Source: Escherichia coli 042
GTDB taxonomy: Bacteria; Pseudomonadota; Gammaproteobacteria; Enterobacterales; Enterobacteriaceae
Reading direction: 5' to 3' (one strand)
Length of the DNA: 64,000 nucleotides
Assembly (NCBI RefSeq): GCF_000027125.1
Contig: NC_017626.1
A program made the position numbers and the translations under genes. Of this stretch, positions 27,727 to 59,330 are shown in pieces. The number at the start of each line of letters is the position of its first letter. Position 1 is the stretch's first letter. Under the pieces are notes generated by a model, which did not search any database, was not told the origin of the DNA, and saw only the letters and a list, made by a program, of their open reading frames with translations.

Positions 27727-27805
27727 AGTCATATCTCCAGGTAAAAAAGGCCCCTCCCAACACATGGGACAAAATGAAAGGAGGAGCCTCGGAAAATACT
27801 TTTAA

Positions 27806-29505: not shown

Positions 29506-31044
29506 TTATTCTGAAGCGAGAAATTTGTCGAGATAAGGTACAACATAAGGAACAGAAGTCTGGAATATACCATTTTCAATCCAGTAAAGGGTGTTTGCCC
29601 CTGGGCGTAAATTAAAGGCGGTGAGATATGCATCAGCTGCTTCCCGGTTCATCCCCTTCATTTCATAAACCTTGCCAAGCAACACATAATTTAGCCAGGA
29701 CATTTCAAGATCAATGCCAGTATTTATCGCCTGGTAAGACTCATCTGTTTTACCTTTTACCAGAGCACTGACCGCTTTTATTTGATATATAATGGACAGG
29801 TTATTCAATTCCGGTAGTGTAACAATGTTATCTATTTCTGTGTTCAGTGCTGCTAATTGTTTTTCATCTAAAGGATGTTGAGAATGGCGCACGATATCAA
29901 CTAATGCTTTTTCTGCTCTCGCGTAGGTAAATTCTGGGGATGATTGAACAATCTCACCTAATAATTCACTGGCACGGTTCAATGATTTATCATCGCCATG
30001 CAGTAAATAATCATGTGCCTGATAAAAATTAGTTAATAACGCACCACGATGAGGCAAAATTTGCTGGAGCATCTCCTGCATTCGTTGTGGCCACGGTTGG
30101 TTTAACGCTTTTGATAAACTCTGGAGTAAATCATTTTGAATCGCCAGCTGATTACCGTTAGTGATGACATAACGTTTATCCAGCATGGTTGAACCATCTG
30201 CATTGTCTACCAATTTTACCGACATAAAGCATTGTTGAGCACGGTATTGGCGCTGATTAACAAACGCAATAGATAATGTTTTACCGGAACTGCTCGGTTC
30301 ATCAATGTTGTAGTTGATTTTGTCATGCACCATAAAGGTGGAGAAGGTGTTAAGTGATGTCGCCACCAAATCACCCACGCCTATCGCGTAAGAGAGCTGA
30401 TACGGGGAACTCCAGCTGTTACAACTTTTATTTACCATATTAATGTCAATATCGCGTGGATTGAGCAAAATACGCGATTTGCTCATCGGAAGACGTGTAT
30501 CAAGACTTGAAAACGCTACCAGTGCTACACAGATACCTAACGACAACAGGAAAAAAAACCATACCCAAAAGGTAGTGAATCGTTTGCTTTTAACTGGGGA
30601 TTGTTCAGGTGGCGTTGCGGTGTTTTGAATGTTAAGACTGTGGGAGGGAGAATCTGTGTCAGGAACCGCCTCTGGTATAGGGGGAGGCGAAGATAGCATT
30701 ATTTCCTCTCCCTCTTCTTCGCTGTACCAGATAACCGGCACCATTAATTTATAGCCGCGCTTTGGTACAGTAGCGATATAGACAGGACTATCTTCATCAT
30801 TATCTTTTAATGACTTACGTAGTTCTGAGATACTCTGCGTCACAACGTGATTGGTGACAATACTTCTCTTCCAGACATTATCGATAAGTTCATCCCTGCT
30901 AAGTACTTCGCCACTGTGTTGAGCAAAGAAAACCAGAAGATCGATTAATCTCGGCTCAAGGGTAAGTTGACGCCCATTGCGGCTAATTTGGTTTATGGAC
31001 GGAGTAACAAGCCATTCGCCAACGCGAACTACAGGTTGTTGCAT
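29506..31044 (-). CDS. cadC: Membrane-bound transcriptional activator CadC (ToxR-like)
   Basis: 512 aa; N-terminal winged-helix (MQQPVVRVGEWLVTPSINQISRNGRQLTLEPRLIDLL), single TM, periplasmic sensor domain. Confidence 0.93.
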   Translation of the reverse strand: MQQPVVRVGEWLVTPSINQISRNGRQLTLEPRLIDLLVFFAQHSGEVLSRDELIDNVWKRSIVTNHVVTQSISELRKSLKDNDEDSPVYIATVPKRGYKLMVPVIWYSEEEGEEIMLSSPPPIPEAVPDTDSPSHSLNIQNTATPPEQSPVKSKRFTTFWVWFFFLLSLGICVALVAFSSLDTRLPMSKSRILLNPRDIDINMVNKSCNSWSSPYQLSYAIGVGDLVATSLNTFSTFMVHDKINYNIDEPSSSGKTLSIAFVNQRQYRAQQCFMSVKLVDNADGSTMLDKRYVITNGNQLAIQNDLLQSLSKALNQPWPQRMQEMLQQILPHRGALLTNFYQAHDYLLHGDDKSLNRASELLGEIVQSSPEFTYARAEKALVDIVRHSQHPLDEKQLAALNTEIDNIVTLPELNNLSIIYQIKAVSALVKGKTDESYQAINTGIDLEMSWLNYVLLGKVYEMKGMNREAADAYLTAFNLRPGANTLYWIENGIFQTSVPYVVPYLDKFLASE

Positions 31045-31624
31045 AATAGAAACTCATTCGAAAAGGGAATGATGCAATGATAATTGCCACAACCTATTTT
31101 TACCATCTATAGATGGGTTTATTTACATATTATTGGTGAATGCAAGACGTTATTTTTACCAGACATAAACTTCTTGATCACATAGTATTGAGAAAGGATT
31201 TTACTGAGAACCAGAAGTAATATTCCTTACCATCAAAATTCATCATCTTTGCCAAAGAAAAATGTTCAGAAAATAATCCATGGAAAATTGTCCGGAGCGC
31301 TTACTATTTTAATGGATTGTTAGTCTTTGCATGAGCAAGCGGACTGATACATTTCTCTTTGTTCTCATTCAGAAAATCTCATCAGTCGGCGTTCAGACCG
31401 GTGTTGTGCTTTATGGATGCGTTACGCTCCTGATGACGTCATTTGACATTCAACAGCATCACGGGGTCGCACGACATTTCACGTCAGTCAGCGCTATAGC
31501 TCAGGAACAAATTTTCCCGAATTGGGATATACCCGCAAAATGCTGGTGTTGTGGGGAGAATTTGGTTGAGTTCGGTAGAAATGATTTTTAGGCAGAACGC
31601 TTAAATTGTGGCGTCCTGAAACGA

Positions 31625-31652
31625 AAAACGGACCTCCGTGGAGGTCCGTTTA
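31625..31652 (-). terminator. Rho-independent terminator next to the tRNA-Phe remnant (likely the former pheU terminator)
   Basis: On the minus strand: cggacctccacggaggtccg stem followed by TTTTT, immediately 3' of the tRNA-Phe 3'-end remnant. Confidence 0.5.
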
Positions 31653-31660
31653 TATGAATT

Positions 31661-31682
31661 TGGTGCCGGACTCGGAATCGAA
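31661..31682 (-). repeat. att-like degenerate copy of the tRNA-Phe 3' end, marking the island boundary
   Basis: tggtgccggactcggaatcgaa matches the reverse complement of the tRNA-Phe 3' end (GGTTCGATTCCGAGTCCGGGCACCA) with one C missing; no D-arm or anticodon arm follows, so the tRNA body is not here. Confidence 0.7.
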
Positions 31683-31792
31683 AATTTCTTTTATCATATT
31701 GATATTAATATAATTTATTTGGTTTGATTAAAAATGTACCCTCAATTATACCCGCAGTCCCTTTTGATATCGAAAGGGAATCACACTCGGGA

Positions 31793-32635
31793 TCAGGCTG
31801 AGAGCACAGAAGGAAAGTACCTGGCTATTATATCGTTAATTCTGTCAATCAGTTCCAGCCTTTTGAAAGTGATGTGTGCAGATCCCTTCTTAAAGTATTT
31901 AATGATGAACATCTCGTCTTCATAGCGCTCTTTACCCTGAACGGACTGGATGTGACCATCCAGACGAATAGTGATGTTTTCCCGGTTGTCGGGGATCGGT
32001 TTGCCGCTGAACAGATGTAGCATTCTTTCCAGGTCGACGAGTCGGTCAGTCTGTTGCCCGGTGATAAGATGAAACCCCCACCGGTCCCACCTCACTAGGT
32101 TGTTGACGATAATTTTACTGCCAAATTTGCAGGGGCAATTGGTTTTGTAATTCCAGTTCAGTCCCCTGAAGACGTTGATCACCCCTCGCTCAAACACCTC
32201 ATCCTTATTCTGGTGTAGTTGTTCAAATGTGCTCAGAATGTTCGCTTCACTGATTTCCGGAAAATTATCGTGCTCCAGTGACCGGTACCATGTATCACGG
32301 GCCTGTGCATCCATTAAGGAAAGCATCCCTGAACGTTGCATCAGGTCACGCCAGATTTCGCGATCGAGATTGCGTGTGATGGCTTTCATTGCGGTTTCCG
32401 GTTTCTCCATCAGCCAGCAGCCGCAGCGAAAATCCTGTTTCATGGCCCAGTCCGGGGCGGCTTTACCGCCAATACTTTCTGTCATTGCTGATATTTCAGC
32501 CAGTTGCCGGATAAGTGTGTCGATTTGCAGCAGTGTACTCTTTCGTACAGCCAGAATGTGGCGGATACTGGTTGAGCAGATAACGTCCGTATGCCCGGTG
32601 ACCACTTCCGGACGGGAGATTGTGATGTCTGACAT
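31793..32635 (-). CDS. Conserved island protein of unknown function (280 aa)
   Basis: Long ORF at the island edge downstream of the yeeW-like gene; no recognisable catalytic motif. Family assignment is uncertain (possibly a DUF-type protein common at the ends of CP4-like islands). Confidence 0.55.
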   Translation of the reverse strand: MSDITISRPEVVTGHTDVICSTSIRHILAVRKSTLLQIDTLIRQLAEISAMTESIGGKAAPDWAMKQDFRCGCWLMEKPETAMKAITRNLDREIWRDLMQRSGMLSLMDAQARDTWYRSLEHDNFPEISEANILSTFEQLHQNKDEVFERGVINVFRGLNWNYKTNCPCKFGSKIIVNNLVRWDRWGFHLITGQQTDRLVDLERMLHLFSGKPIPDNRENITIRLDGHIQSVQGKERYEDEMFIIKYFKKGSAHITFKRLELIDRINDIIARYFPSVLSA

Positions 32636-32719
32636 TATCGGTTTCCCTTTTGGTTTATAAACGAAAACGCCAGCCCTGTTCAGGCTGACGTCAGTGGAAT
32701 GAAGTATGGTGAGTGATAT

Positions 32720-33142
32720 TTACCGGTTCTGGTGCAGAAGCTGCAGATGACGAAGAGTACGGACATCCTCCCGGGCCTGTTCGATACAGGGCAACAGTGC
32801 TACCGAATCCGTTTTATCCTCATCGTTGTCAAAGATAATTCCCGATTCGCAGTCGATATTGTCCTGCAGCCACGCAATGAGGATATCCAGCGCTGTTTCA
32901 GTGGTTAATGGCATCACGCTCTGTATCACTGTATTGTCTTCCGGCAACTGATGAGGGCTGGCAGAAGTCGCCGGTGTTTCGGTAGCGTCACGTTCATTCA
33001 CCACGCGGAGTGAATAACCGTTTTCAGCGACTTTGTTAATCAGTTCAGCGAGCTCAATACCATCGACGTCAACGACAATGCGCCCCATGTTCAGCGCCTG
33101 CGCATTAATGCTGTCGGCTTCCAGCGTCAGGGCCAGTTTCAT
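32720..33142 (-). CDS. YeeW-like protein (140 aa)
   Basis: Immediately downstream of, and overlapping by 4 nt with, the cbtA-like toxin gene, as yeeW follows yeeV in CP4-44. Confidence 0.6.
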   Translation of the reverse strand: MKLALTLEADSINAQALNMGRIVVDVDGIELAELINKVAENGYSLRVVNERDATETPATSASPHQLPEDNTVIQSVMPLTTETALDILIAWLQDNIDCESGIIFDNDEDKTDSVALLPCIEQAREDVRTLRHLQLLHQNR

Positions 33143-33516
33143 TGTTTCGCCCCCGGATGTTTACCCAGGGTAATGTTATTTACCGTTCTGTAGTTGTCGC
33201 GTGTCATCAGGCCGGTTGCCCGGCGTGCCCGGAGAATATCAATGCTGTTGATTAACTGCGACGGGGCTCCTGCGCTGAATCCCGGCTGGTCGGTACGTAC
33301 CAGCGCGTATTTTTCAACGAGAAAGTTCACCGCGTCACACAGTGAAATCCCTGCCTCAATATGCTGCTCAATCACACGTTCATCAGCGAACGGTGTGTCA
33401 TTCAGCGTGAGGCCATAGTGCTGGTCCAGCAGTCGGGTGAGCAGTGTCTGCCAGATGGTGATGGGAGACGGGCAGCCCGATGCCTCCCGTACGTGAGTGT
33501 CGGGTAATGTATTCAT
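33139..33516 (-). CDS. cbtA: Type IV toxin, CbtA/YeeV/YkfI family (cytoskeleton inhibitor)
   Basis: ORF 33139-33621; from the internal Met (MNTLPDTH...) gives ~125 aa with LLDQHYGLTLNDTPFADERVIEQHIEAGISLCDAVNFLVEKYALVRTDQPGFSA, closely matching the CbtA family. Confidence 0.85.
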   Translation of the reverse strand: MNTLPDTHVREASGCPSPITIWQTLLTRLLDQHYGLTLNDTPFADERVIEQHIEAGISLCDAVNFLVEKYALVRTDQPGFSAGAPSQLINSIDILRARRATGLMTRDNYRTVNNITLGKHPGAKQ

Positions 33517-33562
33517 CTTAAGTTCTCTGTAACAGGTGGTTATAAAGGGGAGATATCCGGTG

Positions 33563-33940
33563 TTATACGGTGGTTGCGGGCGCTGCCGGTGTCGGATAAA
33601 CAGCCAGATAAACGTAACCACAGGAGCCGAGGGTGTCGGCTTCGCAGGTCAGCCCTTTCGCATACAGTGTCACGGTATGCTGATGGCGGGGATTCAGTTC
33701 ACCACTGGTGAGCATGAGCTCCAGTTGTTTCATCAGCAGCGGAAAGGCCTGGTCCAGGTGGTATGCATCTGCATCGCTGAACCGGCCTCTGATACCGGCG
33801 CGGTCGGCAAGGTAATGCAACCGGTTACCCTTCTGCACCAGACGTGCCCCGAAACAGGGCGTCACGGTGCAGGGCAGTCCCCACCAGAGGCGGTCGTGAT
33901 TGTCGTCGGGAGGCGTTGTCCCGGGGAGTGTGTCTGACAC
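33563..33940 (-). CDS. cbeA: Type IV antitoxin, CbeA/YeeU/YfjZ family
   Basis: 125 aa beginning MSDTLPGTTPPDDNHDRLWWGLPCTVTPCFGARLVQ; sits upstream of the toxin gene. Confidence 0.85.
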   Translation of the reverse strand: MSDTLPGTTPPDDNHDRLWWGLPCTVTPCFGARLVQKGNRLHYLADRAGIRGRFSDADAYHLDQAFPLLMKQLELMLTSGELNPRHQHTVTLYAKGLTCEADTLGSCGYVYLAVYPTPAAPATTV

Positions 33941-34019
33941 GATAAAGTCCTCACAGAAAATCGGTTAAGAATGGTCCGGTAGTGGCGATAATTCTGCTCA
34001 TCAGAATTCCCTTCCAGAC

Positions 34020-34241
34020 TCAGTTCAGGGTGACGCTCATCAGCCGGACATACGGACCAAAACTGTCCTTACGGCGTTCTGCAAACACAGCCAGTACACC
34101 GGGAATATCCTGCACTTCACGGCCGGTATATGTATCCGTGCTACCGTGCCAGCGGTATTTACCGGTACAGAACGGAAAAAGACGGGATGCAGGATGCTGA
34201 CGGTGAATACGCATGGCTTCACCACGGGTGATGATTTTCAT
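34020..34241 (-). CDS. yeeT: DUF987 protein, YeeT/YpjJ family
   Basis: 73 aa; MKIITRGEAMRIHRQHPASRLFPFCTGKYRWHGSTDTYTGREVQDIPGVLAVFAERRKDSFGPYVRLMSVTLN, near-identical to recalled K-12 YeeT. Confidence 0.8.
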   Translation of the reverse strand: MKIITRGEAMRIHRQHPASRLFPFCTGKYRWHGSTDTYTGREVQDIPGVLAVFAERRKDSFGPYVRLMSVTLN

Positions 34242-34327
34242 GAGAATAGTCCTCCTGAATGTGAAAGTAAGAAACAGCTGAGAAAGAGAAACTGAAGTGA
34301 TATGAAGGTGATTGTGACGGTGACGGG

Positions 34328-34819
34328 TTAAAGCAGACCGTGTTCCGCAAAGGAGAAAACCTGGCTGCCACCGACTATCAGATGGTCCGGTACCCGGATA
34401 TCAACCAGGGCCAGTGCCTGTACCAGACGCTCAGTGATAAGGCGGTCTGCCTTGCTGGGGGGGACTTCACCGGACGGGTGATTGTGCGCCAGCACCACGG
34501 CAGCGGCATTGTGGTACAGGGCGCGTTTAATCACTTCCCGGGGATGGACTTCCGTACGGTTGATGGTGCCGGTGAAGAGGGTTTCACCGGCAATCAGCTG
34601 ATTCTGGTTGTTCAGATACAGCACCCGGAACTCTTCACGCTCCAGTCCCGCCATGTTCAGAATCAGCCATTCCCGTGCCGCATGCGTGGAGGTGAAGGCC
34701 ACGCCGGGTTCATGAAGATGGCGGTCCAGGGTTTTCAGGGCCCGCTGAATGAGGCTGCGCTCGCCGGGTGTCATCTCTCCGGGCAGAAAGGAAAGTTGTT
34801 GCATTGTGCTTCTCTCCAT
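34328..34819 (-). CDS. RadC-like JAB/MPN-domain protein (YeeS/YkfG/YfjY family)
   Basis: JAMM motif region HNHPSGEVPPSKAD; 163-aa ORF, true start possibly 5 codons in. Confidence 0.85.
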   Translation of the reverse strand: MERSTMQQLSFLPGEMTPGERSLIQRALKTLDRHLHEPGVAFTSTHAAREWLILNMAGLEREEFRVLYLNNQNQLIAGETLFTGTINRTEVHPREVIKRALYHNAAAVVLAHNHPSGEVPPSKADRLITERLVQALALVDIRVPDHLIVGGSQVFSFAEHGLL

Positions 34820-35293
34820 TCAATCGATGATGCGCATAATGGCGCTGCATTCCGGATGCTGCAGGGCGTAATCCCGCAGCCGGTAATAATGGACCGTCAT
34901 GGCATAACACTCCGTACGACAGGCATGATGACTGTACGTCATCAGACAGGCGGCAATGCCGGCGGCTTCCGGGCTCATTTCAGCGCGGTTACCGTTCATG
35001 GCATTGAACAGTACCCAGTTTTCGCCATCATCGTCATCCGGTTCGGGTGCCATAAATGCCCCGCCGTTGTTCAGGGTGTACAGATTCCAGATACCACCGC
35101 AGTAGTTTTCGCAAAGACGGTCCATCCAGCCGAAGACACGGGGCTCCAGGGTCACCCACTGTGGAATGAGGCCAAAGTGCTGCGGCCAGAAACTGATACG
35201 TTGTTCATCAGGGACGAGGCTGGCAACCAGTTGTTGCAGGTCAGTCTCCGGTGCTGAGACCGAAGAGGTGGTGTTCTGAGACAATGTTTTCAT
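34820..35293 (-). CDS. Antirestriction protein (YfjX/YafX/KlcA-ArdB-like)
   Basis: 157 aa; typical position upstream of radC in CP4-type islands; acidic DDDDGENW stretch. Confidence 0.78.
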   Translation of the reverse strand: MKTLSQNTTSSVSAPETDLQQLVASLVPDEQRISFWPQHFGLIPQWVTLEPRVFGWMDRLCENYCGGIWNLYTLNNGGAFMAPEPDDDDGENWVLFNAMNGNRAEMSPEAAGIAACLMTYSHHACRTECYAMTVHYYRLRDYALQHPECSAIMRIID

Positions 35294-35594
35294 ATGTGAA
35301 ATCCTTGTAGTGTGAATAAATGCGAGGAAGTAAAGGTCGGGTGGCTGATAACATCACGTTCATCACTGACCGTGAGACCCGGTAATATCAGGGATGAATG
35401 ATATTCGGCTGAAATTCCGGACAGCCGTACGCGTAACCGTTCCGGTCACAGACGGATGGCCTGATGCCATTGCCTGTACTCAGTCTGCACAGACTGATTT
35501 CTCCGGGACGGTAAAGCAGACGGGTATACCAGGCGCACAGGTCATCATCAGAAATGGAACGACATCCCGGCAGCGCCTTCAGGGACAGGCTGCA

Positions 35595-36413
35595 TCAGCG
35601 CAGGCTCTCCAGCAGCGTTTCCGCCATCACCCACAATGCGCGGTTGAGCTTAATATCGGTGTCGATGCTGTGAATGGCACGGGTGTGGATACGTTTTCCT
35701 CTGGCACTGCGACCGGAAATCCCGCCTTTCAGCATATTCTCCTGGATGGTCTGATAAGTACTCCACAGGTCCTTACCGTAATCCTCCCTGCGTCGCGGTG
35801 TCAGAATGTCAGCGGTGGTGACGGGCTGATGTTCGTCACCATAACGGTAAGTCAGTGCCGCCTGTGCCAGCGCCTGGCGTGCCGGTGGCGGCAGAATCAG
35901 CGACTGCATGGCATCACGCTTTTCCTCAATCCGGTCAAAAACCCCCACCACCTCGTAAGCCCCTTCAATGACTCTGTCCACCACATTTCCCCGGTGCGGA
36001 ACACGCACTTCCCCCAGAGACTGACCACAGACGCATCCGTTCTGGCAGACGAACCTGAAGTAACCCGGCAGCATCTGGTAGCTGGAGGTACCGTCATGAG
36101 AGTTGAGCAGAATAATTTCAGGGAAATGTTCTCCGTTTATCTCTCCGGCCCGCCGCAGACGCAGCATGTGTTTTGTGTATCCCCGGCGGCCCGGGTCGCG
36201 CACACGGGTCTGGCAGGCGAAGAATGGCTGAAAGCCTTCCCGCTGCAGGCTTTCCAGTACGGTGATGGTGGGGATGTACGTATAGTTCTGGCTTCGGGAC
36301 GTGTGTTTATCTTCCCCGAAAATCCCCGGCACATAGTGCATCAGTTCTTCGTGTGTCAGCGGACGGTCACGGCGTATCTGGTTCGCATAACCAAAACGAC
36401 TGGCTAGTCGCAT
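35595..36413 (-). CDS. DUF932-type protein (YafZ/YfjQ-like)
   Basis: 272 aa; conserved position in the CP4-like backbone; no catalytic motif recognised. Confidence 0.65.
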   Translation of the reverse strand: MRLASRFGYANQIRRDRPLTHEELMHYVPGIFGEDKHTSRSQNYTYIPTITVLESLQREGFQPFFACQTRVRDPGRRGYTKHMLRLRRAGEINGEHFPEIILLNSHDGTSSYQMLPGYFRFVCQNGCVCGQSLGEVRVPHRGNVVDRVIEGAYEVVGVFDRIEEKRDAMQSLILPPPARQALAQAALTYRYGDEHQPVTTADILTPRRREDYGKDLWSTYQTIQENMLKGGISGRSARGKRIHTRAIHSIDTDIKLNRALWVMAETLLESLR

Positions 36414-39992: not shown

Positions 39993-42900
39993 TCAGAAGG
40001 TCACATTCAGCGTGGCCTGACTGTTATAACCTTCAGCGCTGCTGCCGCTGACGCTGTGGGCATAACCGGCCTGAACGCCCAGGGTGATATTTTCCCGGAC
40101 ACGGGCTTCCAGTCCGGCCTGCAGATCCAGTGAAGTGCCATTCTGTGAGGGAGAGAACGTCATCCCGCTGCCTGCGGTGGAGGTCCCCACACGCATATCA
40201 CCCCGGGAGCTGAAGGTGCGGATAACGGAAGGCTGTACCCACCAGTTCACCGGCAGTTCACGCACACTGTGTTTTGCACTGTCACGCAGGGGGGCACGGG
40301 ATGAGGTGCCTTCACCAAAGGTCATATCGTTGTGGCTGCCCAGACGGAAACCGGCACGCACATGTTGTGCACTGCCATGCCCGAACTTCACATAACCGGC
40401 GTTGTCCTTACCGTCATCCAGCGAAAGCCCCTGCCAGGTGTACTGCAGCCGTGGCTCCAGCATCAGGTTGTCAGTAATACTGAAGGGCAGACCGGTTTCC
40501 AGTGAGCCCAGCCAGCCCCAGCCCCGTGCGCGGAAGTCGTTATTGCCCGATGACGCTTTCATACTGTGGCGGGTTCCCTGTGCCACAATGTCAGCCCACA
40601 GGCCGGAGGAGGTGTGTGTCAGGTTCATATATCCGCCCAGGCTGCCGGCATCATCCCGGACCGTGCCGGCGCGGGAGCCGTCATCATCCTTAACATCAAC
40701 GGAAGAATGGCCTGCAGCACCATACACTCCTGTCGTCAGTGACATACCGGCGACCTCTGTTCTGAGCAGGTCACCCTCCAGACGGACGAAGCCATAGCTG
40801 CCGCTGCTTTCCGGCGTGGCCCCACGGGCAATACCGCCGTTGTTATCGTGACCGAGATGGCCGCCCTGAATGCTGAGACGGACGCTGTTATTTTCACCGT
40901 TTACACCGGTCTGATGGCTGCGTGAGCCTGCCAGAATCCGGTCATAGTCCATTGCCTGTGTCAGCATGGAGGCGTACAGGGGGACTTCAGCACGATAACG
41001 TTCTTCACTGCGCAGATACCAGCTCTCATCACTGTCCCGGTTGAGGGTGTAGTTAAAGGCCCCGGCCTGCAGCATATTCCCCTGGACAAAAGCCCCTTCC
41101 TCCGTGGTGGCACCGTTAATGGCCTCAACCACCTGAATACCCTTACCGGTGGTCGCCAGCCCCGTACCACTGTTGCCGGCGTTCACCAGATTCAGGATGG
41201 TTTTTCCGGTTGCCCTGCCACCGTCAATGACCAGTCTGTCAGCATTGTTCTGCGCCATATCCGGGCGTACACGCAGGCTGATGGTGCCATTCTGCCCGTT
41301 CAGGTTTTTCACCTGCAGGGTTGCCGGTACGAACTTCCCTGTGCGGGTGGAGGTGAAATGAATCTGTCCGGCATGGCTGAGGTCATCCACCACCGACTGC
41401 ACCGTGGCGTTATCAGGGATATTCCAGGTGGCACCGGATGTCAGGGTGACATTCGTGGGGTCAATGGCACCGTTCAGCACTGTGCTGCCGGTCAGCTTCA
41501 GGGCCGTGCCGCGCTGAGCGATGACATCCGTGGTGACGGTACTGTCGTTCAGCGTCAGCGTGCCTTCATTCAGGTTGACGGTTTTCTGGGTGAGTGTGGT
41601 GTTGCTGACAGTGAGTGTGCCACTTCCTGATTTTTCCACCCTGCCGTTACCGGTAAGAGCGCCTCCCTGCAGGAGTGCATCACCTTCACGGATGGTCAGG
41701 GTATCGTTATTCACCGTTTTCCCGGAAAGGGTAAGCGTGGCACCGTTATTCAGCGTGGTGGTGCCCGCCAGCGAGCCCCCTCTGGCAGTGAACAGTCCGC
41801 CATTTACCGTGGTATCCGTGGCCGTATCACCGGCGTTCAGCGTGAATGAACTGCCTTTTTCCAGCATCAGGGCATCCGCCTGACCGCCCCCGATACGGAA
41901 TGCCGTTCCGTCGCTCCGGGTACCACTGACAGCGGCCCCGGAATCGGCCAGCAGTACACCGCCATTCCCCATGGATACGGTGGTGGCGGCACCACCGTTG
42001 CGGACATCCAGCGTTCCGCCATCATCCACACGGGTATTAGTGGCTGTGTGTCCGCTCAGCACATCCAGACGTCCGCCATTTTCCAGTACGACATTATCAG
42101 CCTTACCCGCCAGAACGGAGAATGCTCCCAGGCGGTTTGTGCCGGTGACGGTTGCAGCTGTGCTGGTAACCAGTGCACCTCCCGTGTTCTGGGTGACATC
42201 AGACGCTTTACCGCCGGCATTCACCTGCAGCTTTCCTTTCTGGTTGATGGTGGTATGCGCGGTAGTTCCTCCTTCCTTAATCACCTGCCAGCCCCCCTCG
42301 TTAATTACCGTGTTCAGCGCAAGTCCGTATTTGTGCACATACTGGTTTCCTCCCTCCAGCCGGGTGTTATGTGCCTCGCCGTGTACCGTCTGGTCACCGC
42401 CGGCGTAAATGAGGGTGTCCCGTGCCATCCCCGAAGACCAGATAACCTGCCGGCCATTTTTGTTGATGGTGGTGGATTCAGCCGTCCCTCCGACCATCTG
42501 ACCGCTGGACACATTTTCAGACTCCGGACCACCTTCTGCACCGGTGTTGACGATGGTTCCGGTTGCCTGCCCGCCATGTTTAATGGTCTGGTAGCCAGAC
42601 TGGTTAATCACCGTTCCGGATGCACTGCCGCCTGCATGTATCCATTGTTCACCACCGTTAAGGACAGTACCGTAAGCCTGCCCGCGCAGATTCTGTCCTC
42701 CACCGGCACTGATAACCGTATCCGTGGCACTGCCACCTGCCATGACATCCTGCAGACCGTTTGCGGTGACCGTGGTGTTTCTGGCAGTGCCACCCCGGGC
42801 TATCTGCTGACCGCCGGTGTTGTCATCAGAGTCCGGCCCCAGCTCAAGCCCGGTACTGACAGTCACGCCATCAGCTGTTCCGGATACAAACTGGTTGTCA

Positions 42901-43112
42901 TGGTTTACCAGTGTTCCGCCATTCACTGTTTCACCCGGGTGCACAACGATGTCAGCAGCCAGCACCGGGAGTGACGTGACTGCGGCAAGAGACAGTGCAA
43001 CCGCCACACCGCCACGTTTACCCCGTGCGCGGGCCAGTTCGGAGGCAACCACGAAAGCGCCCGTAATGTGATTCCATACCAGCCTGTAGCAGGTATTCAG
43101 ATGTCGTTTCAT
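39993..43112 (-). CDS. flu: Antigen 43 (Flu) self-associating autotransporter adhesin
   Basis: ORF 39993-43118; from the third Met (MKRHLNTCYRLVWNH...) gives 1039 aa; extended signal peptide, beta-helical passenger repeats, C-terminal beta-barrel ending ...ATLNVTF. Confidence 0.93.
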   Translation of the reverse strand: MKRHLNTCYRLVWNHITGAFVVASELARARGKRGGVAVALSLAAVTSLPVLAADIVVHPGETVNGGTLVNHDNQFVSGTADGVTVSTGLELGPDSDDNTGGQQIARGGTARNTTVTANGLQDVMAGGSATDTVISAGGGQNLRGQAYGTVLNGGEQWIHAGGSASGTVINQSGYQTIKHGGQATGTIVNTGAEGGPESENVSSGQMVGGTAESTTINKNGRQVIWSSGMARDTLIYAGGDQTVHGEAHNTRLEGGNQYVHKYGLALNTVINEGGWQVIKEGGTTAHTTINQKGKLQVNAGGKASDVTQNTGGALVTSTAATVTGTNRLGAFSVLAGKADNVVLENGGRLDVLSGHTATNTRVDDGGTLDVRNGGAATTVSMGNGGVLLADSGAAVSGTRSDGTAFRIGGGQADALMLEKGSSFTLNAGDTATDTTVNGGLFTARGGSLAGTTTLNNGATLTLSGKTVNNDTLTIREGDALLQGGALTGNGRVEKSGSGTLTVSNTTLTQKTVNLNEGTLTLNDSTVTTDVIAQRGTALKLTGSTVLNGAIDPTNVTLTSGATWNIPDNATVQSVVDDLSHAGQIHFTSTRTGKFVPATLQVKNLNGQNGTISLRVRPDMAQNNADRLVIDGGRATGKTILNLVNAGNSGTGLATTGKGIQVVEAINGATTEEGAFVQGNMLQAGAFNYTLNRDSDESWYLRSEERYRAEVPLYASMLTQAMDYDRILAGSRSHQTGVNGENNSVRLSIQGGHLGHDNNGGIARGATPESSGSYGFVRLEGDLLRTEVAGMSLTTGVYGAAGHSSVDVKDDDGSRAGTVRDDAGSLGGYMNLTHTSSGLWADIVAQGTRHSMKASSGNNDFRARGWGWLGSLETGLPFSITDNLMLEPRLQYTWQGLSLDDGKDNAGYVKFGHGSAQHVRAGFRLGSHNDMTFGEGTSSRAPLRDSAKHSVRELPVNWWVQPSVIRTFSSRGDMRVGTSTAGSGMTFSPSQNGTSLDLQAGLEARVRENITLGVQAGYAHSVSGSSAEGYNSQATLNVTF

Positions 43113-43304: not shown

Positions 43305-43340
43305 GATCGATATAAACGATCGATAAAATAGGTATCGATC
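43305..43340. promoter_or_regulatory. Ag43 phase-variation switch: three clustered GATC sites (Dam/OxyR)
   Basis: GATC at 43305, 43318 and 43337 within gacGATCgatataaacGATCgataaaataggtatcGATCg, ~190-230 bp upstream of the flu start codon. Confidence 0.7.
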
Positions 43341-52874: not shown

Positions 52875-53372
52875 ATGAGCAGTTCGTTTCAGAATGAAAT
52901 CCCGAAAGCAAGGGTAAATCTGAAATTAGACCTACATACGGGTGGTGGGCAGAAGAAAGTGGAGCTTCCGCTCAAACTTCTGGTTGCCGGTGATTTCAGT
53001 AACGGACAGGAAGAGCGTCCACTGTCAGAGCGTGTAAAAACGGATATTAATAAAAACAATTTTAATGATGTTCTGGCAGATATCTCCCCGTCTGTACATC
53101 TGAATGTGGAGAACACGCTTGCCGGTGATGGCTCTGAAGAGAGCATCAGCCTGACTTTCCGCAATATGAACGATTTCACGCCAGAGCAGGTCGCCCGACA
53201 GATTCCCCGTCTTAAAGCCATGCTGGCCATGCGTAGCCTTCTGCGGGACCTGAAAGCCAATCTGCTGGATAACGTGACTTTCCGTAAAGAGCTGGAAAAA
53301 ATTCTGCGTGACCCGGCACTGAGTCAGACGCTGCGTGATGAACTGCGTGCACTGGTGCCGGAAAAGGCGTGA
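52875..53372 (+). CDS. tssB: T6SS contractile sheath small subunit TssB
   Basis: ORF 52851-53372; from the internal Met, MSSSFQNEIPKARVNLKLDL...VELPLKLLVAGDF, a typical TssB/VipA N-terminus; RBS aggagag upstream. Confidence 0.93.
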   Translation: MSSSFQNEIPKARVNLKLDLHTGGGQKKVELPLKLLVAGDFSNGQEERPLSERVKTDINKNNFNDVLADISPSVHLNVENTLAGDGSEESISLTFRNMNDFTPEQVARQIPRLKAMLAMRSLLRDLKANLLDNVTFRKELEKILRDPALSQTLRDELRALVPEKA

Positions 53373-53393
53373 TTTAACGGATTACGAGAGAAA

Positions 53394-54938
53394 ATGCTGA
53401 TGTCTGTACAGAAAGAAAAGAACGTTGCAGAGAGCGTGGTATCTGAAGCGCATGCCGGCGACAGCGTATATGCTTCCCTGTTTGAAAAAATTAACCTGAG
53501 TCCGGTATCTGCCCTGAGTGCACTGGATATCTGGCAGGATCCACAGGCCATGTCAGAAGCATCTGCAGATGAACGTCTGACGGCAGGGATGCAGGTGTTT
53601 ATGGAGTGTCTGGCAAAAGCCGGCACGCAGGTGGAAAAACTCGATAAAGCGCTGATTGACCATCATATTGCAGAGCTTGATTATCAGATCAGCCGTCAAC
53701 TGGATGCTGTGCTTCATCATCCGGAATTTCAGAAAGTGGAGTCGCTGTGGCGGGGCGTGAAGTCCCTGGTGGATAAAACGGACTTCCGCCGTAATGTGAA
53801 AATTGAGCTGCTGGATCTGTCCAAAGACGATCTGCGTCAGGATTTTGAGGATGCGCCGGAAATTATTCAGAGCGGCCTTTATCTGCAGACCTATGTGGCT
53901 GAGTATGACACGCCGGGTGGTGAGCCCATTGCCGCCCTGGTTTCAGCCTGGGAGTTTGATGCATCTGCACAGGACGTGGCGTTGCTGAAAAATATTTCCC
54001 GGGTGGCGGCATCTGCACATATGCCGTTTATTGGTTCAGTTGGCCCGGCGTTCTTCCAGAAAGAAACCATGGAAGAGGTGGCTGCCATCAAGGATATTGG
54101 CAACCACTTTGAGCGTGCCGAGTACATCAAGTGGAATGCTTTCCGTGAGACGGACGATGCCCGCTATATTGGCCTGGTGATGCCCCGTGTACTGGGACGC
54201 CTGCCGTATGGCCCGGATACCGTACCTGTCCGCAGCTTTAACTATGTTGAAGAGGTGAAAGGACCGGACCACCATAAATATCTCTGGACGAACGCGTCTT
54301 TTGCCTTTGCAGCCAACATGGTGCGCAGTTTTGTCACCAACGGCTGGTGTGTTCAGATCCGTGGGCCTCAGGCCGGTGGTGCGGTGCAGGATTTGCCAAT
54401 CCATTTGTATGATCTGGGAACCGGTAATCAGGTCAAAATTCCGTCAGAGGTGATGATCCCGGAAACGCGGGAGTTTGAATTCGCGAATCTGGGCTTTATT
54501 CCGCTCTCTTACTACAAGAACCGGGATTATGCCTGCTTCTTCTCTGCTAACTCCGCCCAGAAACCGGCGCTGTACGATACGCCGGATGCAACGGCGAACA
54601 GTCGTATTAATGCCCGTCTTCCCTATATCTTCCTGCTGTCCCGTATTGCGCATTACCTGAAGATCATTCAGCGGGAAAATATCGGTACCACCAAAGATCG
54701 CCGTCTGCTTGAGCTGGAGCTGAATAACTGGATCCGGGGACTGGTGACGGAGATGACCGATCCGGGTGATGAACTGCAGGCCTCGCATCCGCTGCGTGAC
54801 GGAAAAGTGGTGGTGGAAGATATCGAAGACAATCCGGGATTCTTCCGCGTGAAACTCTACGCCGTACCGCATTTCCAGGTAGAAGGTATGGACGTCAGCC
54901 TGTCACTGGTTTCGCAGATGCCGAAGGCAAAAGCGTAA
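53394..54938 (+). CDS. tssC: T6SS contractile sheath large subunit TssC
   Basis: 514 aa directly after tssB; TssC/VipB-like sequence throughout. Confidence 0.95.
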   Translation: MLMSVQKEKNVAESVVSEAHAGDSVYASLFEKINLSPVSALSALDIWQDPQAMSEASADERLTAGMQVFMECLAKAGTQVEKLDKALIDHHIAELDYQISRQLDAVLHHPEFQKVESLWRGVKSLVDKTDFRRNVKIELLDLSKDDLRQDFEDAPEIIQSGLYLQTYVAEYDTPGGEPIAALVSAWEFDASAQDVALLKNISRVAASAHMPFIGSVGPAFFQKETMEEVAAIKDIGNHFERAEYIKWNAFRETDDARYIGLVMPRVLGRLPYGPDTVPVRSFNYVEEVKGPDHHKYLWTNASFAFAANMVRSFVTNGWCVQIRGPQAGGAVQDLPIHLYDLGTGNQVKIPSEVMIPETREFEFANLGFIPLSYYKNRDYACFFSANSAQKPALYDTPDATANSRINARLPYIFLLSRIAHYLKIIQRENIGTTKDRRLLELELNNWIRGLVTEMTDPGDELQASHPLRDGKVVVEDIEDNPGFFRVKLYAVPHFQVEGMDVSLSLVSQMPKAKA

Positions 54939-54953
54939 GGCAGGTGTCGGGAA

Positions 54954-56291
54954 ATGAAGATTTATCGCCCATTATGGGAAGACGGGGCTTTTCTGATGCC
55001 CCAGCAGTTTCAGCAGCAGGCTGCCTGGGATGTTCATCTGGCAGACAGCGTTGCCAGAATGGGGCTGGCGCATCCATGGGGCGTGGTGGCTGCAGAGTTT
55101 GATGACTCTCTGTTACCGCTTTCACGGTTGAATGCCACCCGTCTGATTGTTCGTTTCCCGGACGGAACGCTTATTGATACGGAACGCGCGGATAATCTGC
55201 CTCCGGTCTGTGATTTATCGACGGTTTCTGATCGTTCCCTGGTGGATATTGTGCTGGCACTACCGTTACTGAATGCTAACGGTGGCAACCTTGATAATGG
55301 CAGTGAGAGCGAGCGTCCGCGTCGCTGGAAATCAGAAAGGGTGAATGTGCAGGAGCTGGCCGGGCATGAGCAAAGCGAAGTGGCGGTATTGCGGCATAAC
55401 CTGACTCTGCGCATGGCTCATCAGGAAAATGCTGCCTGGCTGACCTGTCCCGTTACCCGTCTTGTTCGTGATGCACAGGGACAGTGGTGCAGGGACCCGC
55501 GTTTTATTCCCCCTCTGCTGACGCTGTCTGCCAGTCCTTCGCTGATGACTGAACTTGCGGAGTTGCTTCATCACCTGCAGGCGCGTCGCCAGCGACTGAT
55601 GTCCATGCGTCGGGAGAACAATGCCCGTCTTGCGGATTTTGCTGTGGCGGACGTGTCGTTGTTCTGGTTGCTGAATGCCCTGAACAGTGCGGAGCCTGTT
55701 CTGAAAGAGTTGCTTGACATGCCTTACCGCCACCCGGAACTGTTGTACAGGGAGCTTGCCCGGCTGGCAGGCTCCCTGCTCACATTCTCGCTTGAGCATA
55801 ATGTGGATGCGGTTCCGGCATACCATCATGAAACACCTGAAAATGTTTTCCCACCATTGCTTTCTTTGCTGAACCGGCTGCTGGAGGCAAGCCTGCCTTC
55901 CCGTGTGGTTTTCATTGAACTGAAACAAAAGGGTGTGATGTGGGAGGGGGCATTACATGATGCGCGTCTGCGCGAAGGGGCTGATTTCTGGCTTTCAGTG
56001 CGCTCTTCCATGCCCGGGCATGAACTGCAGACGAAGTTTCCGCAGCTATGCAAAGCCGGGAGCCCCGATGATGTGTCTGAGGTGGTGAATGTGGCGCTGA
56101 GCGGGGTCATTATCCGTCCGGTTACGCATGTACCGGCGGCCATTCCGCTCCGGCTGGAAAACCAGTATTTCGCGCTGGATTTAAGTACGGATGCGGCCCG
56201 GGCGATGCTGGACGCGGGGCGTTGTACTTTCTACACCCCGGCATCGCTGGGAGATGTGAAACTGGAACTTTTTGCGGTGCTGCGGACATGA
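54954..56291 (+). CDS. tssK: T6SS baseplate protein TssK
   Basis: 445 aa; MKIYRPLWEDGAFLMPQQFQQQ, canonical TssK N-terminus. Confidence 0.9.
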   Translation: MKIYRPLWEDGAFLMPQQFQQQAAWDVHLADSVARMGLAHPWGVVAAEFDDSLLPLSRLNATRLIVRFPDGTLIDTERADNLPPVCDLSTVSDRSLVDIVLALPLLNANGGNLDNGSESERPRRWKSERVNVQELAGHEQSEVAVLRHNLTLRMAHQENAAWLTCPVTRLVRDAQGQWCRDPRFIPPLLTLSASPSLMTELAELLHHLQARRQRLMSMRRENNARLADFAVADVSLFWLLNALNSAEPVLKELLDMPYRHPELLYRELARLAGSLLTFSLEHNVDAVPAYHHETPENVFPPLLSLLNRLLEASLPSRVVFIELKQKGVMWEGALHDARLREGADFWLSVRSSMPGHELQTKFPQLCKAGSPDDVSEVVNVALSGVIIRPVTHVPAAIPLRLENQYFALDLSTDAARAMLDAGRCTFYTPASLGDVKLELFAVLRT

Positions 56292-56941
56292 ATAAACCTG
56301 TTATCTCCCGGGCTGAACAGATTTTTTATCCCGGCTGGCTGATGGTCAGCCAGCTGCGCAGCGGGCAACCGGTTGAGGATGGTAAGGCCCTGTATCGCCG
56401 TGCCTGTCAGCTGGTGAAACAGGCGCGTGAAGAGCTGGCCGAAGCAGGATTCAGTCAGAAAAGCAGTGACATCATGTTGTATGCCTTCTGCGCCCTGCTG
56501 GACGAGAGTGTACTGAACCGCGAAAAAACAGACGATGGCTGGCGCACCTGGCAGCAGGACCCGCTGCAGGCTCATTTTTTTGGTACGCTCAATGCCGGTG
56601 AAGAGCTCTGGGAGCGTATTCGTGAACAACTGAAATTACCAGCGCCGGATGTGGCGGTACTGACATGCCTCTGCCGTACGCTTCAGCTCGGTTTTACCGG
56701 TCAGTACCGGTCGCAGGATGATGAGCGTCGCGAAGATGTAATACGCGCACTGACAGCGCGTGTTCCTGCATTTACTTTCGCACAGGATGCGCCGGTGGTG
56801 GTGCGTGCACCGGGTTACCGTGCTGGCAGAACGATGTACTGGTTGTCATGGGGGGCGGGTATTGTGACGCTGGCTGGTCTCTGGTGTGTGCTTTCTTCTG
56901 TGCTTGCAGACCAGGTGGCACGGCTTACCGGGCAGGGATAA
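56288..56941 (+). CDS. tssL: T6SS membrane-complex protein TssL (DotU-like)
   Basis: ORF 56222-56941; start taken at the ATGA overlap with the tssK stop (MNKPVISRAEQIFYPGWL...); cytoplasmic DotU domain plus single C-terminal TM helix. Confidence 0.88.
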   Translation: MNKPVISRAEQIFYPGWLMVSQLRSGQPVEDGKALYRRACQLVKQAREELAEAGFSQKSSDIMLYAFCALLDESVLNREKTDDGWRTWQQDPLQAHFFGTLNAGEELWERIREQLKLPAPDVAVLTCLCRTLQLGFTGQYRSQDDERREDVIRALTARVPAFTFAQDAPVVVRAPGYRAGRTMYWLSWGAGIVTLAGLWCVLSSVLADQVARLTGQG

Positions 56942-56943
56942 CC

Positions 56944-58674
56944 ATGCACGTACGTTCCCGTCTCTGGCTGACAATACTGAGTCTGTTCCTGACACTGTGG
57001 CTGATTTCGGGATTCCTGCCGCTGTCTGCAGTAAACCAGATAATACTGACCCTGGTTTCAGTTGTGGCGGCGGGGCTTGTGCTGTGGTACCAGTGGCGTT
57101 GTCTGTCTTCCCGTCGTGATATCCCGGAGAAGGCCGGCGATGACGGTCTGCCGCCTGAGTATTTTCAGGGACATGTGCTGCTTGTTGCCGGAAACTCAGA
57201 TGCGTGGTTCGAACCCGGTCAGGCATACCGGGAAACAGCATCGGGATGGTATCTTCGTGTGGATACGCCGGAGCAGATGAGAATACTGGCAGAACGGTTG
57301 TCGTACAGCCGTCCGGCCCTGTGTGGCCAGGTCGTGGTCATGCTGGGACTTTTACCGGAGCAGCATACCTCAGATGAAGCTTTCCTGTCGTGGTTGCGGA
57401 ACTGGCAGCGTGCAGTCATGCAGTGCCGGCAGTGGCTGAATACCACGCCACCGGTGCTGGTTACATTGATGGTTTCAGAGCCGTCACCACAAAACACATC
57501 CTTAAATAAGCACTCTACACACTGGTTTACACTGACACCGGACCTGCCGGGAATGCATATACGCCTGACGGAAGCCGGAGCAATTCCGGCAGAGGAATGG
57601 CTGCAGGCGTGTGATGCAGCGTCCAGGCTCCGGTGCGTCAGTGAACTGTTATGGCTGAATGCCATGTTGTCCTGGTACAACCGGGTTACTGATGCCCTGA
57701 CAGCTATTTGCCGGCAGGAGCACTTTTATTTCCGGCCGGTTGCCGTTGGATTCTGTCTGACGTCGGTTGCGGCCCGCCCCGGTAATCTCTGGCAACAACA
57801 ACTGACGTCCCTCACTGCATTGCCACCGCCTGCCGGCGTGTCATCACAGGTATTGCCGTTGCCGGATATTCTGCTGTCCGGTATTCCCCGTCATCGTGGA
57901 CTCAGTCACTGGCACAGACTTTGTCGCCAGACGGGGGCGATTGTCGGTGTTTTTCTTCTGCTGGCTATGCTGGCGTCTTTTATGAATAACCAGCGGCTGG
58001 TTCGCAGCGTGGGGGAACACCTGACGGCCTGGCACCGGATGCGCGGATATTCATCTGAATCGAAAACAACAGCACTGCAACGTCTTCAGGCTGACAGCCA
58101 GTTACTGAACGACTGGCAGCAACGTGGTGTGCCACAGCGTTACGGACTGGGATTGTATCAGGGAATGTGGCTGATACCGCCGGTTGAGCGTGCGACTGGT
58201 GAGTGGGTTGCACCACGGCCTCCCCGTCCGGTGATACAGAAAGTTACTCAGACGCCGAAAACGGTTCGCCTTAACAGCCTGGCACTGTTTGATGCCGGTA
58301 AATGGACGCTGAAGCCGGGCGCCACAAAATGGCTGGTGAATGCCCTGGTGGATATTAAGGCAAAAGCAGGCTGGCTGATTGTGGTCAGTGGTCACACGGA
58401 TAATACCGGTGACCCGCTGCGCAACCAGGCCTTGTCCCTGAAGCGTGCAGAGGCCGTTCGCGACTGGATGCGGGATACCGGCGATATTCCCCAAAGCTGT
58501 TTTGCCGTACAGGGATACGGTGAAAGCCGCCCTGTGGCCCCGAATGACACGGCGGAAGGCCGTGCGCGTAACCGCCGTGTTGAAATCAGTCTGGTACCGC
58601 AGGCCGATGCCTGTCGTCTGCCGGACGTTTCCCCTGCGCCGGAAGAGGGCGCATCAGAAAACATAACGGAGTAA
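56944..58674 (+). CDS. tagL: TagL-like T6SS accessory protein: polytopic membrane domain plus C-terminal OmpA/MotB-type peptidoglycan-binding domain
   Basis: ORF 56848-58674; Met at 56944 immediately after the tssL stop gives 576 aa; N-terminal TM helices; C-terminal VSGHTDNTGDPLRNQALSLKRAEAVRDWM...NRRVEI OmpA-like motif. Confidence 0.8.
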   Translation: MHVRSRLWLTILSLFLTLWLISGFLPLSAVNQIILTLVSVVAAGLVLWYQWRCLSSRRDIPEKAGDDGLPPEYFQGHVLLVAGNSDAWFEPGQAYRETASGWYLRVDTPEQMRILAERLSYSRPALCGQVVVMLGLLPEQHTSDEAFLSWLRNWQRAVMQCRQWLNTTPPVLVTLMVSEPSPQNTSLNKHSTHWFTLTPDLPGMHIRLTEAGAIPAEEWLQACDAASRLRCVSELLWLNAMLSWYNRVTDALTAICRQEHFYFRPVAVGFCLTSVAARPGNLWQQQLTSLTALPPPAGVSSQVLPLPDILLSGIPRHRGLSHWHRLCRQTGAIVGVFLLLAMLASFMNNQRLVRSVGEHLTAWHRMRGYSSESKTTALQRLQADSQLLNDWQQRGVPQRYGLGLYQGMWLIPPVERATGEWVAPRPPRPVIQKVTQTPKTVRLNSLALFDAGKWTLKPGATKWLVNALVDIKAKAGWLIVVSGHTDNTGDPLRNQALSLKRAEAVRDWMRDTGDIPQSCFAVQGYGESRPVAPNDTAEGRARNRRVEISLVPQADACRLPDVSPAPEEGASENITE

Positions 58675-58679
58675 TTTTT

Positions 58680-59171: not shown

Positions 59172-59330
59172 TTCTGCCGGACGGACAGGGCATCCTGTCC
59201 GTCATTTTTATTTTTTCTTCAGCATCTGTTGGCGGGTGCTGAAGAAAGAATTCTCAATCCTGAACACAGACCTGATGCGCCTGGGTTACGGCGAAGGGCG
59301 GTAGCGTGCCTGACGGTCTCCTGACAGTGA

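What the first reader, a model, noticed from the sequence alone, without database searches (positions are those of the whole stretch)
31625..31792. Island boundary: degenerate tRNA-Phe 3'-end repeat with retained terminator but no tRNA body or integrase
About 620 bp beyond the cadC start, where pheU sits in K-12, only a 22-nt near-copy of the tRNA-Phe 3' end is present (one C deleted), next to an intact terminator hairpin. Foreign DNA then runs for at least 32 kb. This is the signature of site-specific integration at pheU, with the intact tRNA expected at the far end of the island outside the window. No integrase gene is present anywhere in the window.
Basis: partly seen in the sequence, partly recalled or inferred. 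Interest (0 to 1): 0.6.

Follow-up and report, generated by a model that had tools for sequence, protein, structure and literature searches.

The report
Far-end scar of pheU genomic island

Summary
Window 31661-31682 is the reverse complement of the last 23 nt of tRNA-Phe minus one C. It lies 617 bp beyond the cadC start, exactly where pheU ends in K-12. An 11-bp-stem terminator sits at 31626-31651, and no tRNA is detected anywhere in the window.

An island-free genome with the same backbone matches the window up to 31682 with no mismatch apart from that one base, and has an intact pheU there. From 31653 to 64000 the window is 99.985% identical to the island at pheV in strain HH35. That island belongs to the 55989 GI-pheV / EAEC pheU PAI family.

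Two genomes carry the same island at pheU. In both, the far end is an intact tRNA-Phe plus an intact P4-type integrase next to dicD.

The one-base-short repeat, TTCGATTCCGAGTCCGG-CACCA, is the published "23-bp imperfect attR". It is a conserved allele, not local decay.

Two refinements:
- A fossil integrase stub (K-12 yjdQ) lies at 31307-31497, on the cadC side of the repeat.
- The "retained" terminator is of the type that these islands carry themselves.

The far end of the window's own genome could not be read. Verdict: already known, low interest.

The parts
29506..31044 (-). cadC, the last core gene before the junction
   Evidence: 512-aa ORF. Annotated as cadC in relatives. The exact protein was found in many genomes.
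31307..31463 (-). Fossil P4-type integrase, C-terminal stub (K-12 yjdQ homologue). It is frameshifted and has an internal stop.
   Evidence: tblastn with the HSP60 and HH35 integrases matches residues 359-420, E 3e-8. Annotated as an integrase pseudogene in HSP60 and as yjdQ in K-12.
31480..31497 (-). Relic of integrase codons 1-6 (MALTDA in live copies). The start codon is mutated from ATG to ATA. Codons ~7-358 are deleted between this relic and the stub.
   Evidence: Alignment with the attL regions of HSP60 and HH35.
31504..31625 (-). Fossil integrase-upstream region (P' arm) of an older island. With the terminator and core it forms a ~180-nt imperfect direct repeat of the attL side of the present island. 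It contains one copy of the motif TATACCCGCA (31528-31537).
   Evidence: Window 31504-31682 versus HSP60 attL: 163 of 179 aligned positions identical, plus a 12-nt indel and a 1-nt indel. Motif.
31626..31651 (-). Rho-independent terminator hairpin (11-bp stem, 4-nt loop, U-run), displaced from the tRNA by the insertion
   Evidence: (I2). The same hairpin follows the intact tRNA-Phe at attL even at pheV, where the native terminator is different.
31661..31682 (-). attR core: the last 23 nt of tRNA-Phe minus one G of the GGG run (tRNA sense TTCGATTCCGAGTCCGG-CACCA)
   Evidence: Identical to the published imperfect attR of GI-pheV. Collinearity with K-12 and with the island-free L013 ends exactly at 31682.
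31683..31792 (.). Non-coding island terminus (P arm). It carries a tandem 12-bp-period motif pair, TGTACCCTCA at 31735-31744 and TATACCCGCA at 31747-31756, which are candidate arm-type integrase sites. It also carries a 22-nt palindrome at 31758-31779.
   Evidence: Present, with the core, in 1181 of 5426 complete E. coli genomes. Motif. The arm-site function is inferred.
31793..32635 (-). DUF4942 gene, the first island gene
   Evidence: 280-aa ORF. Annotated in HSP60 and HH35.
32720..36413 (-). The 'yee' module: DUF957, DUF5983 pseudogene, CbtA/CbeA toxin-antitoxin, DUF987, RadC, antirestriction protein, DUF932
   Evidence: ORFs. Annotation of the 99.985%-identical HH35 island, mapped with an offset of +26724.
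39993..43112 (-). agn43 (Ag43 autotransporter), the 'flu' module
   Evidence: HH35 annotation mapped onto the window. Hits.
52875..64000 (+). T6SS-1 (Sci-1) cluster: tssB, tssC, tssK, tssL, an OmpA-family gene, hcp, tssH and vgrG. It runs off the end of the window.
   Evidence: HH35 annotation mapped onto the window. tle1 and tli1 follow in relatives.

Best explanation
The segment is attR, the tRNA-distal junction of a P4-integrase-type genomic island inserted into the 3' end of pheU. The island is of the EAEC pheU/pheV PAI kind and carries the yee and flu modules and the Sci-1 T6SS.

Integration recombined the island's attP core with the last ~23 nt of the tRNA gene. The tRNA body stayed at the other end of the island (attL). 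There it is completed by island DNA and followed by an island-borne terminator and the integrase gene. The old 3' flank was left here, behind a 22-nt core copy.

That old flank consists of a terminator, an integrase-upstream region and an integrase stub. It is itself the fossil attL of an earlier island of the same family, the one that K-12 retains as pheU-yjdQ.

Shown: the anatomy, the exact breakpoint, the empty-site allele, the intact tRNA and integrase at the far end in relatives, and the use of both pheU and pheV by identical integrases.

Inferred:
- The one-base-short core travels with the island, so strand exchange lies 3' of the G-run, within the terminal CACCA.
- The GGGTA(T/C)A tandem motifs in both arms are arm-type integrase sites.
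For: Breakpoint: K-12 and the window are collinear from cadC through the terminator to tRNA nt 23 from the 3' end, then diverge. Empty site: L013 has 0 mismatches and one 1-nt gap over window 26506-31682, and carries an intact pheU followed by dicD. Island identity: window 31653-64000 is 99.985% identical to the HH35 island at pheV, which is 118 kb with pic and two T6SSs. Far end at pheU: HSP60 and AF58 have tRNA-Phe plus an intact tyrosine integrase next to dicD and dsbD. The integrases have Arm-DNA-bind_3, Phage_int_M and Phage_integrase domains, and the identical proteins sit beside pheU in some genomes and beside pheV in others. Island-borne terminator: at pheV the intact tRNA is followed by the GGACCTCC hairpin, while the native pheV hairpin (CCCGCC...) is displaced to attR. 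Core allele: 10 of 11 attR copies examined lack the G, at both loci and on diverged island ends. Of 39 evenly sampled full-length hits, 37 have an ungapped 100-nt span. The same sequence is listed for 55989, APEC O1, H10407 and others in PMC11537424 Table 1. Horizontal origin: 36 of the 39 differences from HSP60 lie in the chromosomal flank and only 3 in the island.
Against: The far end of the island in the window's own genome was not seen. CM127744.1 is 100% identical to the window over 7.5 kb but is not in the readable collections, so loss of pheU or of the integrase in this strain is not excluded. No excision product or integrase activity was tested. The crossover position is deduced from allele distribution only. 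One pheV island (PEC145) has a perfect 23-nt attR, so the core allele is not strictly invariant. Independent slippage in the G-run, or selection for excision-defective attR, could contribute to the pattern.
Confidence: 0.93

Rival explanations
1. The junction is an old, inherited scar. This lineage acquired the island by homologous recombination, using flanking core DNA or a resident related island, and not by integrase action. The one-base-short attR may then be an excision-defective, 'locked' site.
For: The island end with the same short core is in 1181 of 5426 genomes, so it is mostly inherited or moved as a block. About 180 nt of imperfect homology (fossil P' arm) flanks the island at pheU, and the conserved yee module offers recombination substrates. 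PMC11537424 suggests that imperfect repeats go with stability.
Against: The same island, with identical integrase protein, lies at two different tRNA-Phe loci whose flanks share nothing beyond CACCA. Flank-based homologous recombination cannot produce that. This rival concerns the route into this strain, not what the structure is.
Confidence: 0.3
2. pheU was truncated in place by an unrelated deletion or insertion (IS-mediated or illegitimate), so the strain has simply lost pheU and no att system is involved.
For: No tRNA body and no intact integrase are present in the window. pheV could supply tRNA-Phe.
Against: The breakpoint coincides to the base with the published att core. The same junction recurs at pheV. 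Relatives have an intact pheU and integrase at the far end. No IS element abuts the junction.
Confidence: 0.02
3. The 22-nt similarity to tRNA-Phe is a chance match.
For: None beyond its short length.
Against: 0 of 100 shuffles give a match even with 3 mismatches. It sits at exactly the K-12 pheU position, after the same terminator.
Confidence: 0.001

Closest known systems
55989_GI-pheV and other intP4-type GI-pheV islands (PMC11537424, PLoS Genet 2024)
   Same: The attR is identical (TTCGATTCCGAGTCCGG-CACCA). The published end of 55989_GI-pheV, coordinate 3,450,350, is the position I derived for window 31661 from the 55989 hit. The yee and flu modules, the T6SS and the P4-type integrase next to the tRNA are also shared. 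The window's island is 99.9-100% identical to the islands of 55989, HH35 and BR1220 over 25 kb.
   Different: Here the island sits at pheU, next to cadC, rather than at pheV, next to yghD. The displaced flank is therefore a fossil attL with an integrase stub, not the native pheV terminator.
EAEC 042 / 17-2 pheU pathogenicity island (Dudley et al. 2006, as cited in PMC2808357 and PMC6730261)
   Same: It is inserted at pheU, is 117 kb in strain 042, and carries the Sci-1 and Sci-2/aai T6SS clusters. AF58, which has the window's junction, has this long form with pic and aaiC.
   Different: Strain 042 itself was not available for comparison. Whether the window's island is the ~75-kb form (HSP60) or the ~115-kb form (AF58) is unknown.
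K-12 pheU-yjdQ-cadC locus
   Same: It has the same terminator, the same integrase-upstream region and the same integrase stub (yjdQ, b4654). Identity is 271 of 283 positions over window 31400-31682.
   Different: K-12 has the intact pheU in place of the 22-nt core, with no island. dicD follows 107 bp after pheU.
Satellite phage P4 and CP4-type cryptic prophages (for example CP4-44), and the she PAI of Shigella at pheV
   Same: All integrate through a tyrosine integrase into the 3' end of a tRNA gene, with the integrase next to the tRNA and a partial tRNA repeat at the far end. The flu/yee modules are shared with CP4-44 and with a Shigella flexneri pathogenicity island according to PMC11537424. 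My naming of the she PAI, and its location at pheV, are from my own knowledge.
   Different: The cargo differs (T6SS, Ag43). No phage structural or replication functions are seen in the window.

Membership tests
intP4-type tRNA-Phe genomic island (GI-pheV / pheU PAI): attR junction | A partial copy of the tRNA-Phe 3' end lies at the tRNA-distal boundary, abutting the former downstream flank | tested here: met
   A 22-of-23 nt copy at 31661-31682, directly after the flank shared with K-12.
intP4-type tRNA-Phe genomic island (GI-pheV / pheU PAI): attR junction | The core sequence equals the described 23-bp imperfect attR | tested here: met
   TTCGATTCCGAGTCCGG-CACCA in Table 1 of PMC11537424 equals the reverse complement of window 31661-31682.
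intP4-type tRNA-Phe genomic island (GI-pheV / pheU PAI): attR junction | The empty-site allele has an intact tRNA gene contiguous with the same flank | tested here: met
   L013 has 0 mismatches and one 1-nt gap up to 31682, with an intact 76-nt pheU followed by dicD. K-12 shows the same.
intP4-type tRNA-Phe genomic island (GI-pheV / pheU PAI): attR junction | An intact tRNA-Phe and a P4-type integrase lie at the other end (attL), tested in relatives with the same junction and island | tested here: met
   HSP60 and AF58. The exact 76-nt tRNA sequence was confirmed. The integrase domains are PF13356, PF22022 and PF00589.
intP4-type tRNA-Phe genomic island (GI-pheV / pheU PAI): attR junction | An intact tRNA-Phe and integrase lie at the other end in the window's own genome | not testable with these tools
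   The window ends inside the island. The probable source, CM127744.1, is not in the readable collections, and the integrase look-ups did not return it.
intP4-type tRNA-Phe genomic island (GI-pheV / pheU PAI): attR junction | Typical cargo modules are present (yee, flu, T6SS) | tested here: met
   Annotation of the 99.985%-identical HH35 island, and the ORFs of the window.
intP4-type tRNA-Phe genomic island (GI-pheV / pheU PAI): attR junction | Integrase-dependent excision and integration (circular attP, restored attB) | not testable with these tools
   This needs experiments or read-level data. Indirect support only: identical integrases and islands are found at both pheU and pheV.
Functional tRNA gene | A cloverleaf detected by a tRNA finder or covariance model | tested here: not met
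   ARAGORN finds 0 genes. Rfam finds no tRNA at gathering threshold or at E<=10.
Intrinsic (Rho-independent) terminator | A GC-rich hairpin followed by a U-run on the transcribed strand | tested here: met
   11-bp stem, 4-nt loop and a TTTTTCGTTT tail on the - strand. Termination activity was not tested.

The most novel reading that the evidence does not exclude
The 22 nt are not a decayed piece of the chromosomal tRNA. They are the island's own attP half-core. The same one-base-short core flanks diverged island ends at both pheU and pheV, whose flanks share only CACCA, so the IntP4-type strand exchange must occur within the last ~5 nt of tRNA-Phe. Each integration also replaces the tRNA's terminator with an island-borne one. 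The 'native' pheU terminator of K-12 would then be a fossil of such an event. Tandem GGGTA(T/C)A motifs in both arms would be the arm-type integrase sites.
Probability: 0.5. Interest if true: 0.25.

Novelty: already known. Interest (0 to 1): 0.1.

Why it matters
It delimits a virulence and competition island (T6SS, Ag43) correctly for annotation. It also shows the island is a recent horizontal arrival, because it is far more conserved than the surrounding backbone. Beyond that it adds only small mechanistic hints: where the integrase probably crosses over, and that the tRNA's terminator is swapped at each integration. These could be tested on a well-studied integrase family, but they do not open a new question.

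Tried and rejected
Source genome:
- I looked for it in the complete-genome collection. The best hits were 99.3% for the junction and 99.1% for the backbone, so it is not there.
- NC_017626.1 (strain 042) and NZ_CM127744.1 are not in the collections.
- An exact-protein look-up of CadC found CM127744.1, which is 100% identical over 7.5 kb.
- Look-ups with the two integrase proteins did not return that record, so the far end in the same genome stayed unread.

Second att copy: I looked for a second tRNA-Phe fragment or a native terminator between the integrase stub and cadC, which would mark the attR of the older island. There is no other alignment to tRNA-Phe in the window, and only a weak terminator-like hairpin at 31103-31116.

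tRNA detection: a permissive Rfam scan of 31400-31900 gave only chance-level hits and no tRNA.

Composition: the base-composition profile shows no sharp step at the junction and was not informative.

Terminator as binding site: I considered that the terminator stem might double as a core-type integrase site, because CGGACCTC resembles the inverted GAGTCCG of the tRNA. I rejected this because the spacing (~20 nt) is wrong for a tyrosine-recombinase overlap, and pheV attB lacks the sequence.

Full report
**What is in the sequence.**
- Window 31661-31682 reads TGGTGCCGGACTCGGAATCGAA. It aligns with the reverse complement of the last 23 nt of E. coli tRNA-Phe with a single 1-nt gap in the CCC run.
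- It is the only such match in the 64 kb, even at 3 mismatches, and 0 of 100 shuffles gave a match.
- Nine bases to its left lies a perfect 12/12 inverted repeat (31626-31637 / 31640-31651). On the - strand this forms an 11-bp-stem hairpin followed by a U-run.
- ARAGORN finds no tRNA in the window. Rfam finds none at gathering threshold or at E<=10 around the site.
- cadC starts at 31044, 617 bp before the repeat. K-12 has the same distance between cadC and the 3' end of pheU.

**The breakpoint.**
- K-12 and the window are collinear from cadC through the hairpin to the 23rd nucleotide from the tRNA's 3' end. They then diverge completely.
- A look-up of the window's exact CadC protein returned both occupied and empty alleles.
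- The island-free contig L013 matches window 26506-31682 with no mismatch and one 1-nt gap (the missing base). It has the intact 76-nt pheU there, followed by dicD and dsbD.
- L022 (CM127744.1) is 100% identical to window 26506-34044. It is probably the source genome or a clone-mate.

**What the foreign DNA is.**
- Window 31653-64000 is 99.985% identical to an island in strain HH35.
- From the junction inward that island carries, in order:
  - DUF4942, DUF957 and the CbtA/CbeA toxin-antitoxin pair
  - DUF987, RadC, an antirestriction protein and DUF932
  - Ag43 and a YeeP-like GTPase
  - the Sci-1 T6SS with Tle1 and Tli1
- In HH35 the island sits at pheV, next to yghD. It is 118 kb long, with a second (aai) T6SS and pic.
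- BR1220, PO06021 and 55989 also carry the 25-kb test segment at 99.9-100% identity; where it sits in BR1220 and PO06021 was not checked.
- This is the EAEC island known as the pheU PAI in strains 042 and 17-2 and as the intP4.5-type 55989_GI-pheV.

**The far end.**
- Two complete genomes have the window's cadC junction and the same island at pheU.
- In HSP60 the island ends, about 75.5 kb away, with an intact 421-aa tyrosine integrase and an intact tRNA-Phe next to dicD, dsbD and cutA.
- In AF58 it ends about 115 kb away in the same way. The AF58 integrase is the same protein accession as in the HH35 pheV island.
- Exact-protein look-ups show both integrase variants beside dsbD-dicD (pheU) in some genomes and beside speC-yqgA (pheV) in others. 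The integrases have Arm-DNA-bind_3, Phage_int_M and Phage_integrase domains.
It could not be checked in the window's own genome.

**The missing C is a family allele, not decay.**
- The same short core flanks the island at pheU (window, HSP60, 97-3250, ST131-type islands) and at pheV (HH35, an O111:H8 strain).
- It also flanks island ends that have diverged by 10-15%.
- One pheV island (PEC145) has the perfect 23 nt.
- The island terminus with its core occurs in 1181 of 5426 complete genomes. Of 39 evenly sampled full-length hits, 37 have an ungapped span.
- PMC11537424 lists exactly TTCGATTCCGAGTCCGG-CACCA as the "23-bp imperfect" attR of GI-pheV in 55989, APEC O1, S88, ED1a, H10407, 12009, CB9615 and O104:H4 strains.
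- The published end coordinate of 55989_GI-pheV (3,450,350) equals the position I computed for window 31661.

**Refinements.**
1. The window does contain an integrase remnant.
   - Residues ~359-420 of a P4-type integrase are at 31307-31463.
   - The first six codons, with ATG mutated to ATA, are at 31480-31497.
   - Both lie on the cadC side of the repeat. This is the K-12 pseudogene yjdQ.
2. The hairpin beside the repeat is island-type.
   - At pheV in HH35 the intact tRNA is followed by this same GGACCTCC hairpin and then the integrase.
   - The native pheV hairpin (CCCGCC...) is displaced to attR.
   - Window 31504-31682 is therefore a ~180-nt imperfect direct repeat of the island's attL side: 163 of 179 positions identical to HSP60.
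   - The K-12-type pheU downstream region is a fossil attL of an older island.
3. A motif TG(C/T/A)GGGTA(T/C)A occurs as a 12-bp-period pair 74 nt inside the island end (31735-31756).
   - It occurs as a pair at +124 and +136 after the tRNA in live attL sites.
   - It occurs once in the fossil arm (31528-31537).
   - The 10-mer occurs nowhere else in the window, against 0.19 expected by chance.
   - I infer that these are arm-type integrase sites. This is not tested.

**Mechanism.**

Shown: the island's attP core recombined with the tRNA's 3' end. This left tRNA, island terminator and integrase at attL, and island end, core and old flank at attR.

Inferred: the G-run allele stays with the island at two loci whose flanks share only CACCA. 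The crossover therefore lies 3' of the G-run.

Horizontal origin: 36 of the 39 differences between the window and HSP60 lie in the chromosomal flank, and only 3 lie in 4.8 kb of island. The island is therefore younger than the divergence of the two backbones.

**Rivals.**
- In-place truncation of pheU and chance similarity are both excluded by the evidence above.
- Arrival of the island in this lineage by homologous recombination, with attR now an inactive scar, remains possible. It changes the island's history, not its identity.

**Verdict.** This is a correct reading of a well-known structure. The feature is already known and of low interest.

Noticed in passing
window 14017-14038: melB is absent. 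The end of melA is joined almost directly to yjdF, whereas an ST131 relative (L043) has 1,645 bp more here, including melB.
   Followed up: partly
window 43137-43342 (-): The Rfam 'IS102' sRNA family matches at 255 bits just upstream of agn43, in the GTPase (yeeP-like)-agn43 intergenic region of the island. No transposase is annotated at this spot in the near-identical HH35 island, so it does not look like an insertion sequence.
   Followed up: no
window 2787-2952 (+): A full-length match to the enterobacterial sRNA family STnc630 (181 bits), near proP and pmrR on the core side.
   Followed up: no
window 31735-31756 and 31528-31537; L003 41268-41290: A tandem 12-bp-period motif TG(C/T/A)GGGTA(T/C)A lies in both arms of the att site. 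It is conserved in diverged island ends and is a candidate arm-type binding site for the Arm-DNA-bind_3 domain of the integrase.
   Followed up: partly
window 31758-31779: A near-perfect 22-nt palindrome (TCCCTTTTGAT/ATCGAAAGGGA) lies 14 nt after the DUF4942 stop codon, without a U-run. Its function is unknown.
   Followed up: no
L003 36824-41211 (HSP60): The HSP60 pheU island is composite. An intact integrase, a sulfatase-family phosphoethanolamine transferase and an outer-membrane protein lie next to pheU. A second, degraded integrase follows ~3 kb further in. No internal att core copy was found.
   Followed up: partly
L030 and L032 (loci): In two genomes the same integrase lies next to an AlpA / DUF6387 element instead of pheU or pheV flanks. 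This suggests tandem islands or a third insertion context.
   Followed up: no
window 46626-46770 (mapped from L002 19902-20046): An IS1 transposase remnant lies inside the island, between the Ag43 module and the hha / T6SS part.
   Followed up: no
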